Assembly: GCA_965243025.1 (NCBI GenBank)
Contig: CBDETY010000003.1
Coordinates: 4,768,001-4,832,000 of the forward strand
Length of the DNA: 64,000 nt
Direction: 5' to 3'
Source of the DNA: Candidatus Latescibacterota bacterium
GTDB taxonomy: Bacteria > Latescibacterota > UBA2968 > UBA8231
Shown here in pieces: positions 1,348 to 5,825 of this stretch. Each line of letters begins with the position of its first letter. Position 1 is the first letter of the stretch. Made by a program: the position numbers and the translations under genes. The notes beneath the pieces are model-generated. The model was given only the letters and a program-made list of their open reading frames with translations. It searched no databases and had not been told where the DNA came from.

Positions 1348-1620
1348 CAATTCCCCTCCGTGTCTGCTTTCGGGACATTCAACCCCCAATCGGGCCGCCC
1401 CTGAGAGGGGATCAAAGATAAACCTCGGAAGACAGCGGCAGAAACGAGGCTTTCAGCCGGCCTCCTCTCCGGCGTGGGCCGGGTCCGCAAACGCGCTTCG
1501 TCCGCGGCGAAGCCCGTTTTTTGAAGCCCACCCGGCGTTGGCGGCCGCGGACGCCGGGGCAGACCCCGGCCCGGATGACCCTGAATCCCGGTCGGGATCC
1601 CGGGAACCGGACTCGGCGAG

Positions 1621-1656
1621 GCAATTGTTGCAGCCGATTCCGTGCAATTGTTGCAG
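1621..1656 (+). promoter_or_regulatory. Twin upstream activator sites (putative bEBP enhancer)
   Basis: GCAATTGTTGCAG at 1621-1633 and 1644-1656 (23-bp period, near-palindromic), about 90-120 bp upstream of a sigma-54 box. Confidence 0.65.
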
Positions 1657-1741
1657 GAATTGTCCCCCCGCACCGGCGCCCTGGAAGCCTGAACAACCCA
1701 TCTGCTTTAATCCACAGGGAGTTACAACCGGCGCCGGCACC

Positions 1742-1757
1742 TGGCACATATCTTGCA
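1742..1757 (+). promoter_or_regulatory. Sigma-54 (-24/-12) promoter
   Basis: TGGCACATATCTTGCA: GG (1743-44)-N10-GC (1755-56), matching TGGCAC-N5-TTGCA; predicted start near 1768. Confidence 0.8.
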
Positions 1758-1853
1758 TGCTGTCTGGCGCAACTGTTCACCATGCAAACACTCGAGGAAA
1801 GCATGGCCCAGCTGTCGACAACCGAAGGAACGAGCTGAGAGAAACGCTGCCGA

Positions 1854-2006
1854 TCGCACTCAGCCCAATCTCCTTCGGAATACCTGAAGGTGTGTGCGAG
1901 TGCGACCCGGCGGAGCCGACGATCTGTAGATGATCGGACCGGCCCTCGCAAGGGGAACCCGATCCGACGGACGAGCCGCAGACACCGCGAGTGCCTGCGG
2001 TTTTTT
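1854..2006 (+). ncRNA. Structured leader RNA / putative sRNA or attenuator (possibly ldcC-motif-like)
   Basis: Stems TCGCACTC/GAGTGCGA (1854-61/1898-1905), CCTTCGG/CTGAAGG, TCTGT/ACGGA, GATCGG/CCGATC enclosing a GCAA tetraloop hairpin, ending in a terminator. Confidence 0.5.
1976..2006 (+). terminator. Intrinsic terminator
   Basis: CCGCAG-ACAC-CGCGA-GTGC-CTGCGG followed by TTTTTT. Confidence 0.75.
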
Positions 2007-2092
2007 CGTGCCTGTCCCGGAAGGCAAAGGAGGCGGGAGTGATACTGATATCCGAATCGAAAGCAACCTCAAAACCGAAAGGAGGCATGCCC

Positions 2093-2176
2093 ATGCGACG
2101 CGAGCTGTTGAACCAGGGCCTGATGTACGGACTTGTCAGCCTCTTCGTGTTCATCGTCGCCCCCCTCGTAACCTGA
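2093..2176 (+). CDS. 27-aa single-TM small protein (alternative in-frame GTG start at 2039)
   Basis: AAAGGAGG 7 nt before ATG; MRRELLNQGLMYGLVSLFVFIVAPLVT. Confidence 0.6.
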   Translation: MRRELLNQGLMYGLVSLFVFIVAPLVT

Positions 2177-2291
2177 GCGGCGCGACGACGGTCGAGGCAT
2201 CTGGTTCGTGAAGGGCGAATCGAAACATGCCGTGGAGACGAATGCGATTCGTCTCCGTCCACCCCGACCATGCGACGATGAAAGGATTGCG

Positions 2292-2408
2292 ATGATTTAC
2301 AGATGGCGAACCTGGAGGGACTCGACCGCTGCAGTTCAGCGCCTGTTCTGGTGGGTGCTTGCCCTTTCCCTGACGCTTGCCTTGCAGGGCGGCCCGAAGG
2401 CGGGCTAG
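2292..2408 (+). CDS. 38-aa small hydrophobic protein
   Basis: GAAAGGA before ATG; MIYRWRTWRDSTAAVQRLFWWVLALSLTLALQGGPKAG; followed by a terminator. Confidence 0.5.
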   Translation: MIYRWRTWRDSTAAVQRLFWWVLALSLTLALQGGPKAG

Positions 2409-2461
2409 CTTCTTCTCCGGACTGCCGCCCCGGGCTGCATCCGCGAAACCCTTCGAAACCG

Positions 2462-2500
2462 AAAGGGCCGGCTCCCGTTCACGGGGCCGGCCCTTTGTTC
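2462..2500 (+). terminator. Intrinsic terminator closing the small-peptide unit
   Basis: AAAGGGCCGGCTCCCGT-TC-ACGGGGCCGGCCCTTT then GTTCTT. Confidence 0.7.
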
Positions 2501-2708: not shown

Positions 2709-3788
2709 ATGTCACGATCCCAGCAAGTGAAGCCGGGTACAGCCACCGGCGAGCGGCTCGAGAAGCTGCTCGACATCCTGCCCTCTTTCGCGCTGCTTGC
2801 GGGTTTGCGGCTCGACCTGTTCGCCATGCTTGAAAGCGGTCCGGCCACCGCCTCCGAGCTGGCTGAACGGCTCGGCGCCGACCGCCGCCGCCTCGACCAG
2901 CTGCTGTACGCCCTGGCCGCGGTCGACCTCCTCACTGCCGAAAAACCGGCCGCGCCAGGAAAACCTGCACCCGGTGAGCTCCGCTTCCGCAACAGCCTGG
3001 AAGCCGGCCGTTACCTCGTTCCGGGGAAAGGGGAGTACCTCGCCGGCCACCAGGAGCTGCTCGCCATCCTCTGGAACGCCGCCCTGAAAACCGCGGATTC
3101 GATCCTGGAAGGCCGTCCGCTGGCAGAGAAGGACTTCGCCGCCATGCCCGGGGAGGAGCTGGCTGCCTTCCTCGGAGGACTGCATTCCATGGCCCTCCAG
3201 CGGGGACGGGAGCTGGCGGGCGGCGACTGGCTCGGCGGCTGCCGCCGCGTCGCCGATATCGGCAGCGGCTCCGGGGGGGTCCTCATCGCCCTTGCCGGGG
3301 AGCTTCCCGAGCTCCGCGCCGTGGCGGTGGAGCTGCCCCGCGTCGCCGAGATGACCAGGGAATTCGTCTCCAGATCCACGGTGGCGGAGCGGATCGAAGT
3401 CGCCGCAGCCGACCTCACCGCCGACGAGGTGGTGATGTCCGAAACCGACCGCTCCCGCCTGGCCCCCGGCTCCTTCGACGCGGTGCTGATGGTCTCCTTC
3501 CTGCAGGTGTTGAGCCCGGGGCAGGCGCGCCGGGTCGTCGGCCGCGCCGCCGGGCTGCTGCGTCCGGGAGGCGCCCTCCACGTCATCGGCGCCGGCATCC
3601 TCGACGACGGCCGCGCGACCCCCGCCAAAGGGGCGCTGTGCAACCTCGCCTTCCTCAACATCTACGGGGAAGGGCGCTCGTACACCGGGGGAGAGCATCG
3701 CGACTGGATGCGCCAGGCCGGTCTGGCCCCTCCGGAACTGCGGGAGCTGGAAGACGGCACCCGGGTCATCAGCGCTCGCAAGCCCTGA
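2709..3788 (+). CDS. SAM-dependent O-methyltransferase family 2 with dimerisation domain
   Basis: N-terminal LDLFAMLESGPATASELAERLG winged helix; VADIGSGSG SAM motif; start uncertain (2607 or 2709). Confidence 0.85.
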   Translation: MSRSQQVKPGTATGERLEKLLDILPSFALLAGLRLDLFAMLESGPATASELAERLGADRRRLDQLLYALAAVDLLTAEKPAAPGKPAPGELRFRNSLEAGRYLVPGKGEYLAGHQELLAILWNAALKTADSILEGRPLAEKDFAAMPGEELAAFLGGLHSMALQRGRELAGGDWLGGCRRVADIGSGSGGVLIALAGELPELRAVAVELPRVAEMTREFVSRSTVAERIEVAAADLTADEVVMSETDRSRLAPGSFDAVLMVSFLQVLSPGQARRVVGRAAGLLRPGGALHVIGAGILDDGRATPAKGALCNLAFLNIYGEGRSYTGGEHRDWMRQAGLAPPELRELEDGTRVISARKP

Positions 3789-3857: not shown

Positions 3858-5825
3858 GTGAAGGAAGCCCTCGCCCAGGTCAGCGAAAATCTCGAGGAGA
3901 TCCTCTCCAGGTACGACGAAGCCGCGCAGGAGCTTCTGCGCGTCGCCCGCGCCGACGGGCACTTCGCCGGCTGGAACCCCGACGATGTCGCCTGGCCCTG
4001 CAGTCCGGGGCCGGGCCAGGTGCCAGGACCCGATGCCCTCGCCAGGCGCGCCGCCCTGATTGCCGAGATCTACGACGGCACGCCGTCCCGCCGCGACAGC
4101 CGCCTCGGGGAGGCGTACGAACGCTACAGCGCGAGGCTGCCGGCCTACCACGAGAGCAACCGCCTCTTCGCCCGGATCCAGCGCCAGTTCCGCGAGCGGG
4201 GCGCCGGAGACGAGCGCGACTTCCTGCAGCTCTACCAGACCGTCTACCTCGAAGCCCTGCGCCGCGAAGACCCGGTTCCCCTCGACGAGGGGGAGGCGGC
4301 GCTCGTCGAGTTCCGCGTCGCCCGCGCGCCCCTGGCGCTGGCGACCTCGGTCGCCGAGAAAGTGCACCGGGACGCCGACCCGGACGACCCCCGCTGGACG
4401 CAGGAATACTCCTGCACCGACGCGGCCGGGAACCCGCGGACCGCGACGCTGCGCGACCATCTCACCGGCATCGCCGAGGCCGTGGTCGACATGCTCGCCG
4501 CCGGCGAGCACCTCGCGGTCCGCTTCAACACCTTCAGCAATTTCATCTGGTTCGGGATCTCGATATGGAAGGCGGTGACCGACCTCGACCTGCTGGTCTC
4601 GCGGCTGCGGGGCAAGGTCCGCCGCAGCTGGCTCGAGAAGCTCGAGTTGCACGTGCGCCTGGCGCAGGGGATGCTGCTGGAGTTCCTCCAGGCCCACCTC
4701 GAGGACCCGGCCCAGATCCGGCCCCGCGAATACTGGTACGGCCAGCAGTACAGCTATCTCACGCGGGACATGATCGACCTCGTGACCGCCCTGATCCCCA
4801 AGGCCAACGCCCTGCGCCGGCGCGCCCGCGGCGGAGATGAAATCCCGCCGGTGGAAGTGCCTCTGCTTTTCCTCGACGACAAGACCGGACGGTTCCTCGA
4901 GTACCCCGGCGTCGGAACGACGGGGACGATTTCCGTATGGAAACGGAGGGCGCGGCTGTTGGCCTGGCTGCGGCTCTTCCGCCAGGCACGCAAGGTAAAA
5001 TTGAGCCTCTGGCGCCCCGAGGTCCCCGAGCAGGTGCGCATCGAGAAGGCTTGGAAGTGCATGCTCGACATGGGCTCGAGGGTGCTCGACCTGTTCGGCA
5101 TCGAGCTCGAGGTGACGGTCGATCCGCTGTTCGAGGAGATGGCGCGTGAGCTCCGCCTGGGAGAGCCGGGGGCGCGCAAGGTCGCCTTCCTGCCGACCCA
5201 TCTCAGCCTCCTCGACCACCCGGTGATGTACGGCGTCCTGCAATCGCCGCAGCTGTGCCGGGCCATGGGATGGGAAGGACCGCGGCCGTGCACCATCCTG
5301 TCGCGGGAGCGGCTCCTCGACGCCACGGCTTTCAGGATCGGAGGCCGGGAGTTCTCGCTGATCGGCATCACCCCGGACCGCATCGACACCTTGAGCGAAG
5401 AAGTGGACGGCTACGTCATCCTGCGCCGCAGCAAGGACACCGGCAATCCGACGCAGCGGTTCGCCGAGTTCCTGGAGCAGCGGCCGGGGGTGGTTTACGG
5501 CGCCGGAACGGTGGCTGCGTACGCGCTGCAGATCCTGCCGATGCAGCACGCCCTGTTCGCCTACCTGCCACAGGACACGGTGATCGTGCCGCTCGCCTTT
5601 CGCGGCATTCACCAGGTCTGGCCCAAATGCCCTCGGGGCAACCTCGACATCAACCCGGGACGCGTAGAGGTCGTGGTGTCGCCGCCCATGCTCGGGGAAA
5701 CGACGCTGCTGCCGCGGAAGCGGGCGTTGCGGACGCAGCTGGAGCCGGCGACGCTGTTTCAGGCGGTGCACATAGCGACGCTGCTGAACCCGGAGCCGGC
5801 GGAGCCCTCCGCGAGCGCCACCTGA
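3858..5825 (+). CDS. Divergent PlsC-like acyltransferase fused to a ~400-aa unknown N-terminal domain
   Basis: FLPTHLSLLDH (HxxxxD), YGAGT at the FPEGT position, IVPLAFRG. Confidence 0.6.
   Translation: MKEALAQVSENLEEILSRYDEAAQELLRVARADGHFAGWNPDDVAWPCSPGPGQVPGPDALARRAALIAEIYDGTPSRRDSRLGEAYERYSARLPAYHESNRLFARIQRQFRERGAGDERDFLQLYQTVYLEALRREDPVPLDEGEAALVEFRVARAPLALATSVAEKVHRDADPDDPRWTQEYSCTDAAGNPRTATLRDHLTGIAEAVVDMLAAGEHLAVRFNTFSNFIWFGISIWKAVTDLDLLVSRLRGKVRRSWLEKLELHVRLAQGMLLEFLQAHLEDPAQIRPREYWYGQQYSYLTRDMIDLVTALIPKANALRRRARGGDEIPPVEVPLLFLDDKTGRFLEYPGVGTTGTISVWKRRARLLAWLRLFRQARKVKLSLWRPEVPEQVRIEKAWKCMLDMGSRVLDLFGIELEVTVDPLFEEMARELRLGEPGARKVAFLPTHLSLLDHPVMYGVLQSPQLCRAMGWEGPRPCTILSRERLLDATAFRIGGREFSLIGITPDRIDTLSEEVDGYVILRRSKDTGNPTQRFAEFLEQRPGVVYGAGTVAAYALQILPMQHALFAYLPQDTVIVPLAFRGIHQVWPKCPRGNLDINPGRVEVVVSPPMLGETTLLPRKRALRTQLEPATLFQAVHIATLLNPEPAEPSASAT

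What the first reader, a model, noticed from the sequence alone, without database searches (positions are those of the whole stretch)
1621..2500. Enhancer-dependent sigma-54 unit that encodes only a structured RNA and micropeptides
Seen in sequence: twin 13-bp near-palindromic sites (1621, 1644), a relatively AT-rich stretch (1705-1726, possibly an IHF-type bend site), a consensus -24/-12 box (1742-1757), then short uORFs, a multi-hairpin RNA, a terminator (1976-2006), two RBS-led hydrophobic micro-ORFs and a second terminator (2462-2500). No normal-sized gene lies inside the unit. Established: sigma-54 needs an AAA+ enhancer-binding protein bound about 80-150 bp upstream, and sigma-54-driven sRNAs such as CrcZ and Qrr exist. 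Inference: a signal-controlled RNA/small-protein regulatory cassette that pipelines would annotate as empty intergenic DNA. The activator is not in this window.
Basis: partly seen in the sequence, partly recalled or inferred. Interest (0 to 1): 0.8.

Follow-up and report, generated by a model that had tools for sequence, protein, structure and literature searches.

The report
Sigma-54 operon for two micro-proteins
This apparently empty gap holds a signal-controlled promoter that most likely drives a long leader RNA and two tiny, conserved membrane-protein genes, probably as part of a wider stress-type gene circuit in an uncultured bacterial lineage.

Summary
The described features are all present. 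The -24/-12 box (1742-1757), the twin 13-bp sites, both terminators and both micro-ORFs are conserved in all 3 genomes of the genus.

The two ORFs are real genes:
- ORF1 (27 aa, 2093-2176) belongs to a ~30-aa family found in 38 of 76 genomes of this bacterial family. It has 41 representatives among 1.84 billion proteins.
- ORF2 (38 aa, 2292-2408) occurs in only 9 of 76 genomes, always right after ORF1.
- Neither matches Pfam or NCBIfam.

All 7 ORF1+ORF2 loci I examined, from two genera, carry a sigma-54 promoter. None of the 29 ORF1-only loci does.

The twin sites match a palindrome, TGCAA-N3-TTGCA. Only 5 perfect copies exist in the chromosome, and 3 of them lie 99-123 bp upstream of perfect sigma-54 promoters. 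The other two promoters precede an RpoS-like sigma factor gene and a PtsN-like gene. The PtsN-like gene sits beside a histidine kinase and an NtrC-type activator, which is my candidate activator, 4.6 Mb from the window.

The 240-nt leader is conserved only within the genus, matches no Rfam family and shows no covariation, so "structured RNA" is unproven. In the second genus the micro-genes run directly into a normal-sized methyltransferase gene.

Transcription itself was not shown. Verdict: a new variant of a known kind, of moderate interest.

The parts
1620..1632 (.). Upstream activator site 1, GGCAATTGTTGCA (9/10 to TGCAA-N3-TTGCA), 122 bp upstream of the -24 box
   Evidence: Conserved in all 3 genus genomes.
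1643..1655 (.). Upstream activator site 2, TGCAATTGTTGCA (perfect palindrome arms), 99 bp upstream of the -24 box, 23 bp from site 1
   Evidence: It is one of only 5 perfect sites in the chromosome.
1715..1725 (.). Invariant block CAGGGAGTTAC inside the relatively AT-rich spacer. It may be a bending-protein site, but this is unproven.
   Evidence: Invariant columns in A1; the spacer is otherwise only 67-68% identical. There is no E. coli-type IHF consensus. Two HU/IHF-family genes are in the genome.
1742..1757 (+). Sigma-54 -24/-12 promoter TGGCAC-N5-TTGCA. The start is predicted near 1768, by the usual spacing rule (recalled).
   Evidence: 0 mismatches. Kept in G001 (1 mismatch) and G002 (0 mismatches) and, at the equivalent place, in 4 of 4 examined loci of a second genus.
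1768..1975 (+). Genus-specific conserved 5' leader RNA with a long central hairpin (about 1846-1912)
   Evidence: It is 81-82% identical to G001/G002, against 45-47% just upstream of the sites. Fold z -2.57; no covariation; no Rfam family; no counterpart in other genera.
1976..2006 (+). Intrinsic terminator 1 (possible attenuator): hairpin plus U6
   Evidence: It is stronger in G001 (-27.4 kcal/mol). A possible competing pairing of 1885-1900 with 1975-1990 scores -17.2 kcal/mol.
2081..2176 (+). GGAGG ribosome-binding site (2081-2085) and ORF1 (ATG 2093 to stop 2176; 27 aa, or 29 aa from ATG 2087). Single-pass membrane micro-protein MRRELLNQGLMY plus a hydrophobic segment.
   Evidence: 4 synonymous and 0 non-synonymous codon differences against G001. 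The family is in 38 of 132 class genomes, all of them in family f1. It has 41 representatives in 1.84e9 proteins. E4, Q8, Y12 and P24 are invariant in 27 sequences.
2234..2256 (+). Intercistronic hairpin GGAGACGAAU-GCG-AUUCGUCUCC with no U tract
   Evidence: Read. A related hairpin is present in G001/G002. Function not examined.
2281..2408 (+). AAAGGA ribosome-binding site and ORF2 (ATG 2292 to stop 2408; 38 aa). Single-pass membrane micro-protein with an R-x2-WW-x2-AL motif.
   Evidence: Alignment A9 has invariant R, WW and AL. 24 unnamed clusters in 5.8e9 proteins. Found in 9 of 76 family genomes, each time next to ORF1.
2462..2500 (+). Intrinsic terminator 2
   Evidence: -31 kcal/mol, z -4.6. 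Conserved in G001 (82%) but not in G002 (36%).

Best explanation
The region is an enhancer-dependent (sigma-54) transcription unit. Its conserved cargo is a pair of single-pass membrane micro-proteins, ORF1 (27 aa) and ORF2 (38 aa).

Proposed sequence of events:
1. An NtrC-type response regulator (REC-AAA+-HTH, with GAFTGA) is phosphorylated by the histidine kinase encoded next to it. My candidate is the gene at contig 3:167938-169326.
2. The regulator binds the twin TGCAA-N3-TTGCA sites at -122 and -99 from the -24 box.
3. It remodels sigma-54 RNA polymerase held at 1742-1757, and transcription starts near 1768.
4. In this genus the transcript first runs through a ~240-nt conserved leader that ends in an intrinsic terminator (1976-2006). 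Part of the output is therefore a short RNA. Only read-through, possibly conditional through a competing pairing, reaches ORF1 and ORF2 and stops at 2462-2500.
5. The two micro-proteins insert N-in into the inner membrane and act together on an unknown membrane partner.

The same palindrome sits at sigma-54 promoters of a PtsN-like EIIA gene and an RpoS-like sigma factor gene, and in weaker form at dnaK. The unit is therefore most likely one arm of a stress- or physiology-responsive sigma-54 regulon.

Shown here: the sequence features, their conservation, the coding signature, and the shared motif. Inferred: which activator binds, the transcript ends, attenuation, membrane topology and function.
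For: **Promoter and machinery**
- The -24/-12 box is perfect.
- rpoN is present.
- The genome has 20 proteins with the sigma-54 interaction domain.

**Conservation**
- 1616-2410 is about 82% identical in both other genomes of the genus.
- Against G001, the sites are 82% identical, the leader 82% and ORF1 with its RBS 96%, compared with 47% in the flank just upstream.

**Coding**
- ORF1 has 4 synonymous and 0 non-synonymous differences against G001.
- The family profile hits 37 of 75 other genomes of the family and 0 of 56 in the other three families of the class.
- It hits 41 representatives (E<=1e-3) of 1.84e9 proteins, always at the C-terminal end of the prediction.
- ORF2 is in 9 of 76 genomes, always adjacent to ORF1.

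**Link between promoter and cargo**
- A sigma-54 box (<=2 mismatches) lies within 800 nt upstream of ORF1 in 7 of 36 loci. These are 3/3 loci in genus g1 and 4/4 examined in g18.
- It is absent from 0/27 loci in g14, 0/1 in g3 and 0/1 in g16.
- The 7 loci with the box are exactly the examined loci that also have ORF2.
- No sigma-70-like promoter was found anywhere in 1300-2800.

**Regulon**
- There are 5 perfect TGCAA-N3-TTGCA sites in 6.78 Mb. Three lie 99-123 bp upstream of perfect sigma-54 boxes.
- 4 of 44 sigma-54-like boxes have a site within 300 bp, against 2.1% of random positions.
- The sites stay at the same offsets at the orthologous promoters of five other genomes in two genera; 20 of 22 promoter regions scanned have a site.

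**Activator candidate**
- It has REC, Sigma54_activat and HTH_8 domains and GAFTGA at residue 227.
- It lies immediately upstream of one of the three promoters.
- Its orthologues are 94-95% (g1) and 72-73% (g18) identical, while the next-best paralogue is 45% or less.
- It is present in 69 of 76 family genomes.
Against: - No transcript start, end or sigma-54 dependence was shown. Contigs from RNA libraries also cover DNA upstream of the predicted start, so they prove nothing.
- The promoter match alone is within chance for a 64-kb window at <=1 mismatch.
- A strong terminator separates the promoter from the ORFs, so the ORFs could have their own unrecognised promoter.
- ORF1 homologues in 29 other examined loci have no sigma-54 promoter. 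The protein therefore does not need this control.
- In three g18 genomes the palindromes lie downstream of the promoter (+74 to +140), not upstream. That is unusual for activator sites and could mean a different role, such as repression.
- Assigning the sites to one of 20 activators rests on adjacency and co-conservation only.
- The dnaK sites are weaker (TGC-N7-GCA) and were not found in 2 of 6 genomes.
- Leader structure: 0 compensatory pairs.
Confidence: 0.62

Rival explanations
1. There are two independent units. The sigma-54 promoter makes only a ~240-nt regulatory small RNA that ends at 1976-2006. ORF1 and ORF2 are transcribed separately from an unrecognised promoter in 2007-2090.
For: - Terminator 1 is a good hairpin with U6 and is conserved.
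- The leader is as conserved as ORF2 (81-82%), which suggests it has a function of its own.
- ORF1 loci in genera g14, g3 and g16 work without a sigma-54 promoter. In g14 and g3 (G004), and in one g18 locus (G126), a terminator also precedes ORF1.
- A block GATAC(T/G)GAT is conserved in 2007-2074.
Against: - The scan found no sigma-70-like promoter in 1300-2800.
- In 3 of 4 examined g18 loci the sigma-54 promoter sits about 220-230 nt upstream of ORF1, and I saw no terminator with a U tract between them.
- The leader has no homologue outside the genus, whereas promoter plus ORF1 plus ORF2 travel together.
- No Rfam family and no covariation.
Confidence: 0.2
2. ORF1, perhaps with ORF2, is a precursor peptide or accessory of a small biosynthetic cluster (aldolase-like gene, O-methyltransferase-like gene, 655-aa unknown protein), not a membrane regulator.
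For: - The order aldolase-like gene, then ORF1-ORF2, then methyltransferase-like gene, then the 655-aa gene is kept between g1 and 3 g18 genomes.
- In g18 the methyltransferase gene starts 17 nt after ORF2 in G129 and similarly close in two others.
- ORF1 has a conserved N-terminal third and a more variable C-terminal part, as precursor peptides do.
Against: - The variable part is a uniformly hydrophobic 15-residue segment with an invariant proline, as expected of a membrane helix.
- Neither flanking gene I scanned belongs to a recognised peptide-maturation family (radical SAM, YcaO, lanthionine synthetase); I name these families from memory, not from a test. The methyltransferase is of the small-molecule Methyltransf_2 type, and the 655-aa protein matches no Pfam or NCBIfam family.
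- ORF1 occurs in 29 genomes of other genera, where ORF2 was not found by its profile. In the loci examined there by tblastn, the aldolase-like and methyltransferase-like genes were not found.
Confidence: 0.06
3. ORF1 and ORF2 are toxic small membrane peptides of a type I toxin-like module, and the surrounding RNA serves their control.
For: Both are short and hydrophobic, lie behind a structured, terminator-bearing leader, and are often duplicated in genus g14 (two copies in most genomes).
Against: - E4, Q8, Y12 and P24 are strictly conserved across 27 diverged sequences, which points to a specific partner rather than general membrane damage.
- The locus is chromosomal and syntenic over two genera.
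- I did not examine the opposite strand for an antisense RNA gene.
Confidence: 0.05
4. The promoter-like and site-like sequences are non-functional chance matches.
For: One match at <=1 mismatch is expected by chance in 64 kb.
Against: - The box is an exact match and is conserved in 3 of 3 genus genomes. It recurs at the same locus in a second genus although the leader sequence is unrelated.
- The twin exact 13-mers belong to a motif with only 5 perfect copies per chromosome, 3 of them at sigma-54 promoters.
Confidence: 0.03

Closest known systems
Sigma-54-dependent small-RNA genes (Qrr with LuxO; CrcZ with CbrB), recalled from general knowledge. RpoN-dependent sRNAs in Campylobacter: PMC11187230, seen only as a search listing with the start of its abstract.
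   Same: An NtrC-type activator with upstream sites, a -24/-12 promoter, and a short terminator-ended RNA with no normal gene behind it.
   Different: - Here the part conserved between genera is not the RNA but two micro-protein genes downstream of the terminator.
- The RNA has no Rfam match and no homologue outside the genus.
- No base-pairing target is known.
Dual-function RNAs that both regulate and encode a small protein (VcdRP, PMC8672173; AzuCR, PMC8915982; both seen as search listings with abstract starts. SgrS/SgrT is recalled.)
   Same: One short transcript carries a structured non-coding part and a micro-ORF of about 30 aa.
   Different: - None of those examples is, to my knowledge, sigma-54-driven.
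- Here there are two ORFs, separated from the RNA part by a terminator.
- A riboregulatory function has not been shown.
Phage-shock (Psp) response: PspF plus sigma-54 driving genes for small inner-membrane proteins (recalled)
   Same: An enhancer-dependent promoter whose products include small single-pass membrane proteins, within a stress circuit.
   Different: - No sequence relation was found. Pfam and NCBIfam give no family for ORF1 or ORF2 even at E<=10.
- The candidate activator has a receiver domain. By my recollection PspF has none.
- ORF1 and ORF2 are far smaller.
Rrp2-RpoN-RpoS cascade of Borrelia (PMC3037356 and PMC11109971; search listings with abstract starts only)
   Same: An NtrC-like response regulator and sigma-54 directly transcribe the gene of an RpoS-like sigma factor. 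The same arrangement is predicted here for the regulon that the window's unit appears to join.
   Different: - This concerns the wider regulon, not the window's unit.
- Here clear palindromic sites flank the promoters.
- The regulon also includes a PtsN-like gene, the micro-protein operon and perhaps dnaK.
Stress-induced small membrane proteins of E. coli such as YncL (31 aa)
   Same: The same size class and single hydrophobic helix. The YncL cluster is among the nearest by language-model features (score 0.81).
   Different: A score under 0.9 is a lead only. There is no detectable sequence homology, and Pfam's own search found no family.

Membership tests
Sigma-54 (enhancer-dependent) promoter | GG at -24 and GC at -12 with fixed spacing; match to TGGCAC-N5-TTGCW | tested here: met
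   Exact match at 1742-1757. Kept in G001/G002 and at the same locus in 4 of 4 examined g18 genomes.
Sigma-54 (enhancer-dependent) promoter | rpoN gene in the genome | tested here: met
   TIGR02395 at 443 bits, above the 277-bit cut-off, at contig 3:4185562-4186992.
Sigma-54 (enhancer-dependent) promoter | An AAA+ enhancer-binding protein with GAFTGA, and binding sites about 80-150 bp upstream | tested here: met
   20 PF00158 proteins in the genome. The candidate has GAFTGA at residue 227. Twin palindromic sites lie at -122 and -99. Which protein binds them is inferred, not tested.
Sigma-54 (enhancer-dependent) promoter | IHF-type bend site between the sites and the promoter (common, not obligatory) | tested here: inconclusive
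   No WATCAANNNNTTR match at <=1 mismatch in 1660-1740; the consensus itself is recalled. An invariant 11-nt block lies at 1715-1725. Two HU/IHF-family genes are present.
Sigma-54 (enhancer-dependent) promoter | Transcription that depends on sigma-54 and on the activator's ATPase | not testable with these tools
   Only assembled contigs of RNA libraries were available, and they cannot show starts.
Intrinsic (factor-independent) terminator | GC-rich hairpin followed by a U tract | tested here: met
   1976-2006: found by the scan; folding 1970-2012 gives -18 kcal/mol. 2462-2500: -31 kcal/mol followed by UUUGUUCUU.
Any described RNA family (Rfam 15) | Covariance-model score at or above the family's gathering score | tested here: not met
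   Nine weak matches at E<=10 in 1300-2800. All are far below gathering score, and most lie on terminator 2. Nothing relevant in the loci of G001, G002 or G004.
Structured regulatory RNA (general) | Base pairs supported by compensatory changes | tested here: inconclusive
   0 of 72 predicted pairs show a double change. Only 3 close sequences exist. z -2.57.
Transcription attenuator | Mutually exclusive terminator and antiterminator pairings, plus a sensor (leader peptide, ligand or protein) | tested here: inconclusive
   - 1885-1900 can pair with the 5' arm of the terminator (-17.2 kcal/mol).
- When 1846-1865 is blocked, the predicted fold changes (-76.3 against -94.0 kcal/mol), and by my reading the terminator hairpin is then lost.
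- The 11-codon uORF (1803-1838) is intact in all 3 genomes, but its codons vary.
- No sensor was identified.
Known small-protein families (Pfam-A, NCBIfam) | Profile match | tested here: not met
   0 families at E<=10 for ORF1, ORF2 and the G004 ORF1 homologue.
Dual-function sRNA | The same transcript has a base-pairing regulatory activity and a translated small ORF | not testable with these tools
   The coding side is supported. No target search or experiment was possible.
Sigma-54 to RpoS-type sigma cascade (Rrp2-RpoN-RpoS-like); applies to the wider regulon | A sigma-54 promoter directly upstream of an RpoS-like sigma gene, with an NtrC-type activator | tested here: met
   - Perfect box at contig 3:6269481, about 245 nt upstream of a 285-aa sigma-70-family gene.
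- The best NCBIfam model for that gene is RpoS, at 238 bits, below the 379-bit cut-off.
- In g18 that gene sits in the activator's own operon.

The most novel reading that the evidence does not exclude
The unit is a dual-output sigma-54 cassette. A conditional terminator divides transcription between a genus-specific ~240-nt regulatory RNA and a heterodimer of two previously undescribed membrane micro-proteins. Together with an RpoS-like sigma factor, a PtsN-like protein and DnaK, the cassette forms an undescribed two-component/sigma-54 general-stress regulon that is core to a whole family of uncultured (sponge-associated) bacteria.
Probability: 0.2. Interest if true: 0.7.

Novelty: new variant of a known kind. 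Interest (0 to 1): 0.45.

Why it matters
- It adds two conserved micro-protein families (about 30 and 38-47 aa) that no family library names. It also gives them a regulatory context, which is rare for such proteins.
- It shows that a region lacking any normal-sized gene can be assigned to a regulon by comparison alone. The regulon has one two-component activator, one palindrome and at least three (perhaps four) sigma-54 promoters. One of these drives an RpoS-like sigma factor, and a dnaK promoter of sigma-54 type may be a fourth.
- For an uncultured lineage this gives a short, testable list: one activator, one 13-bp site and four promoters.
- It also offers a natural case for studying how the same micro-protein gene is wired to sigma-54 in some genera and, apparently, to sigma-70-type promoters in others.

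Tried and rejected
- **More relatives of the leader.** A DNA search of all 76 genomes of the family with 1600-2090 found full-length matches only in G001 and G002. It also gave three 29-34-nt hits at E 0.002-0.009, which I take as chance. A scan of metagenome contigs with an invariant 18-mer gave 25 loci, none homologous beyond 20 nt. Covariation could therefore not be tested.
- **Homology between the g1 leader and the g18 leaders.** Only 8-9-nt chance words were shared.
- **Expression.** One run search and one lay of four runs, all as assembled contigs.
  - RNA-library X19 has contigs on 1594-1703, 1868-2031, 2248-2458, 2541-2700 and 2579-2646. X20 has one on 2160-2379.
  - One X19 contig lies upstream of the predicted start, and RNA libraries can hold DNA. 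I draw no conclusion on transcription, starts, ends or read-through.
- **The search for homologous proteins on ORF1.** I used the search of protein representatives instead.
- **Protein atlas.** ORF1's nearest clusters score 0.78-0.83, which is a lead only. ORF2 had no usable hit.
- **IHF consensus.** Not found.
- **18-codon uORF as a gene.** Rejected because of the frame-shift in G002.
- **50-codon GTG ORF at 1890-2042.** Rejected because G001 and G002 carry a 1-nt indel in it.
- **Long GTG-started version of ORF2 (2208-2408).** Rejected because the extension is not conserved as protein and carries indels.
- **The 655-aa neighbour (3858-5825).** No Pfam, NCBIfam or PDB relative.
- **Literature.** Four searches turned up nothing on these proteins, this palindrome, or sigma-54-driven micro-protein operons in such bacteria. 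Only listings and abstract starts were read.
Full report
**1. What is in the sequence**

The window is contig 3:4768001-4832000 of a 6.8-Mb genome in 3 contigs, with GC 0.654 for contig 3. Between a leftward aldolase-like gene (301-1389, Beta_elim_lyase) and a rightward O-methyltransferase-like gene (about 2709-3788, Methyltransf_2 with a dimerisation domain) lie about 1.3 kb with no normal-sized gene.

- Two exact copies of GCAATTGTTGCA at 1621 and 1644. Only 3 exact copies exist in the whole genome.
- An exact TGGCAC-N5-TTGCA at 1742-1757.
- A hairpin with T6 at 1976-2006.
- Two Shine-Dalgarno-led hydrophobic ORFs.
- A -31 kcal/mol hairpin followed by UUUGUUCUU at 2462-2500.

One caveat applies. 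The promoter match alone is not beyond chance for 64 kb at <=1 mismatch: the shuffles give a mean of 1.25 matches. The argument has to come from context.

**2. Conservation within the genus**

Both other genomes of the genus (G001 and G002) hold the region 1616-2410 at about 82% identity, in the same gene context. Identity to G001 by segment:

| Segment | Identity to G001 |
|---|---|
| Flank upstream of the sites | 0.47 |
| Sites | 0.82 |
| Spacer | 0.67 |
| Leader | 0.82 |
| Terminator 1 | 0.87 |
| 2007-2074 | 0.72 |
| ORF1 with its RBS | 0.96 |
| ORF2 with its RBS | 0.81 |

The sites, the leader and both ORFs are therefore under constraint.

**3. The micro-ORFs are genes**

ORF1 (ATG 2093, 27 aa):
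- A second in-frame ATG at 2087 sits only 1 nt after GGAGG.
- It differs from G001 at 4 codons, all synonymous.
- A profile of it finds 38 of 132 genomes of the class, all of them in the window's own family f1 (37 of 75 other genomes). It finds 0 of 56 in the other three families.
- Against 1.84 billion representative proteins it finds 41 at E<=1e-3. The match always lies at the C-terminal end of the prediction, and most predictions are 29-33 aa long.
- In 27 aligned members, E4, Q8, Y12 and P24 are invariant. The first three are spaced i, i+4, i+8, which I infer is one face of a helix just before the hydrophobic segment.

ORF2 (ATG 2292, 38 aa):
- It has an invariant R-x2-WW-x2-AL core.
- It has 24 unnamed, Pfam-less clusters in 5.8 billion proteins.
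- It occurs in 9 of 76 family genomes: 3 of 3 in genus g1 and 6 of 10 in genus g18. These are the same six g18 genomes that have ORF1, and ORF2 is next to ORF1 each time.

Neither protein matches Pfam or NCBIfam at E<=10. Each has one hydrophobic stretch with the positive charge on the N-terminal side. N-in single-pass topology is an inference.

**4. The promoter travels with the ORF pair, not with the leader**

I looked 800 nt upstream of ORF1 in 36 loci for a sigma-54 box with <=2 mismatches:
- It is present in 7 loci: all 3 of g1 and all 4 examined of g18.
- It is absent from all 27 loci of g14, 1 of g3 and 1 of g16.

The g18 boxes are exact and lie 220-393 nt upstream of ORF1. Three g18 loci also keep the divergent aldolase-like gene. 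The g18 leaders share no sequence with the g1 leader. Loci of g14 and g3 instead show sigma-70-like promoters, which I judged by eye, and a separate upstream gene of about 50 codons.

What is conserved across genera is therefore the sigma-54 promoter plus ORF1 plus ORF2.

The claim that the unit holds only small genes needs a limit. In G129 the methyltransferase-like gene starts 17 nt after ORF2 with no terminator, and it is similarly close in G131 and G019. There the micro-genes probably head a longer operon. Terminator 2 is conserved in G001 but not in G002.

**5. The twin sites belong to a regulon**

The sites fit the palindrome TGCAA-N3-TTGCA.
- The chromosome has 5 perfect copies and 54 copies at >=9/10.
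- Three of the 5 perfect copies lie 99-123 bp upstream of exact sigma-54 boxes. These are the window's promoter, one at contig 3:167796 and one at 6269481.
- Eight of the 54 copies lie within 400 bp of four sigma-54-like boxes.
- 4 of 44 such boxes have a site within 300 bp, against 2.1% of random positions.

The other promoters:
- The 167796 promoter precedes a PTS-EIIA (PtsN-like) gene. It lies directly downstream of a histidine kinase gene and a REC-AAA+-HTH_8 activator gene that carries GAFTGA.
- The 6269481 promoter precedes a 285-aa sigma-70-family gene whose best model is RpoS, below its cut-off.
- The fourth is a TGGTAC-N5-TTGCA box about 60 nt upstream of dnaK. It is conserved as a sigma-54-type box in 5 of 5 other genomes checked, but its sites are weaker.

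Across six genomes of two genera, 20 of 22 orthologous promoter regions carry a site at >=8/10, at nearly fixed offsets. Background is 0.061 such sites per kb.

The activator has single clear orthologues: 94-95% identity in g1 and 72-73% in g18, with paralogues at 45% or less. It is present in 69 of 76 family genomes. In g18 the RpoS-like gene lies in the activator's own operon.

I infer that this activator binds the window's sites. Nothing here tests binding.

One oddity remains. In three g18 genomes the micro-ORF locus has its two sites downstream of the promoter, at +74 to +140. The ptsN-like and sigma-factor promoters also carry extra downstream sites.

**6. The leader**

The stretch 1768-2006 is conserved within the genus only and matches no Rfam family.
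- It folds somewhat better than shuffles (z -2.57).
- It shows no compensatory change in 72 predicted pairs, with only three close sequences to compare.
- Of the uORFs, the 18-codon frame is broken in G002.
- An 11-codon frame (1803-1838, behind GAGGA) is intact in all three genomes. Its codons 3 and 5 change the residue, and metagenome variants change codon 10. Coding is therefore doubtful.
- A competing pairing between 1885-1900 and the terminator's 5' arm is possible (-17.2 kcal/mol). It becomes the predicted fold when the 5' arm of the central hairpin is blocked.

This makes an attenuator plausible, but it is inference. A terminator also precedes ORF1 in one g18 locus and in g14 and g3.

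**7. Mechanism proposed, and comparison with known systems**

The mechanism and its rivals are set out in the corresponding fields. In short, this is an enhancer-dependent micro-protein operon with a genus-specific, terminator-bearing leader, wired into a two-component/sigma-54 regulon.

It works like known sigma-54 units (sRNA genes such as Qrr and CrcZ, and the Psp membrane-stress operon, both recalled). The regulon resembles the Rrp2-RpoN-RpoS cascade (PMC3037356 and PMC11109971; listing and abstract start only). The micro-proteins, the palindrome and the leader have no described counterpart in the libraries and papers I could search.

**8. What remains open**

- Transcription, its start and ends, read-through, translation, binding of the activator, and the function of the micro-proteins.
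- The RNA-library contigs could not settle expression.
- The complex prediction never ran because the queue was full.
- Earlier notes of this scan describe this genome as that of a sponge or coral symbiont. Runs labelled sponge metagenome hold part of the stretch, but I did not lay those runs.

Noticed in passing
own genome, contig 3:1348657-1348850 (minus strand); loci L102-L107: dnaK is preceded by a sigma-54-type box (TGGTACATCGATTGCA, about 60 nt upstream of the start codon). The box is conserved in 5 of 5 other genomes of two genera (G002: TGGCACAGAAATTGC). A TGC-N7-GCA site lies about 107-114 bp upstream in 3 of the 6 genomes, and at -162 in a fourth. A sigma-54-dependent dnaK would be unusual.
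   Followed up: partly
own genome, contig 3:166950-170216 (L048) and 6269300-6270585 (L049): The order is histidine kinase, then NtrC-type activator, then [palindrome, sigma-54 box, two more palindromes], then a PtsN-like EIIA gene. A second sigma-54 promoter with the same palindromes precedes an RpoS-like sigma gene. In genus g18 that sigma gene sits directly after the PtsN-like gene. This looks like a sigma-54 to alternative-sigma cascade that is core to the family: the activator is in 69 of 76 genomes.
   Followed up: partly
loci L021, L023-L047 (genera g3 and g14), about 300-600 nt upstream of their ORF1: There is another unannotated small gene of about 50 codons (MIGVHRFDM...LFAPRG...). 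It has a TTGACA-type promoter, an AGGAG site and its own strong terminator. All indels among 26 distinct sequences are multiples of 3. There was no Rfam hit in the G004 locus.
   Followed up: partly
L081, L082, L083 (genus g18), downstream of ORF2: The O-methyltransferase-like gene follows ORF2 within about 17 nt. The order aldolase-like gene, micro-ORFs, methyltransferase gene, 655-aa unknown gene is syntenic with the window. This suggests a functional link between the micro-proteins and these enzymes.
   Followed up: partly
window 3858-5825 (+): A 655-aa protein conserved in g18 (56-58% identity) has no Pfam, NCBIfam or PDB sequence relative. By eye it contains an H-x4-D-like stretch (HLSLLD) of the kind seen in acyltransferases. 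This was not tested.
   Followed up: partly
window 1495-1522 (+): A terminator-like hairpin with T6 on the plus strand lies between the aldolase-like gene and the activator sites. The region 1447-1615 was not aligned with G001/G002 by BLAST, and 1560-1615 is 45-47% identical, so it may be a genome-specific element.
   Followed up: no
window 2234-2256 (+): A perfect 10-bp hairpin without a U tract lies between ORF1 and ORF2. A related hairpin is present in G001 and G002. It may be a processing or stability element.
   Followed up: no
genus g14 genomes (e.g. L022, L085): Most g14 genomes carry a second, shorter ORF1 paralogue (27 aa, ending ...KPLLN or ...MPLLN). It sits behind a TTGACT/TACTAT-type promoter and is followed by a different small hydrophobic ORF of about 52 aa.
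   Followed up: no
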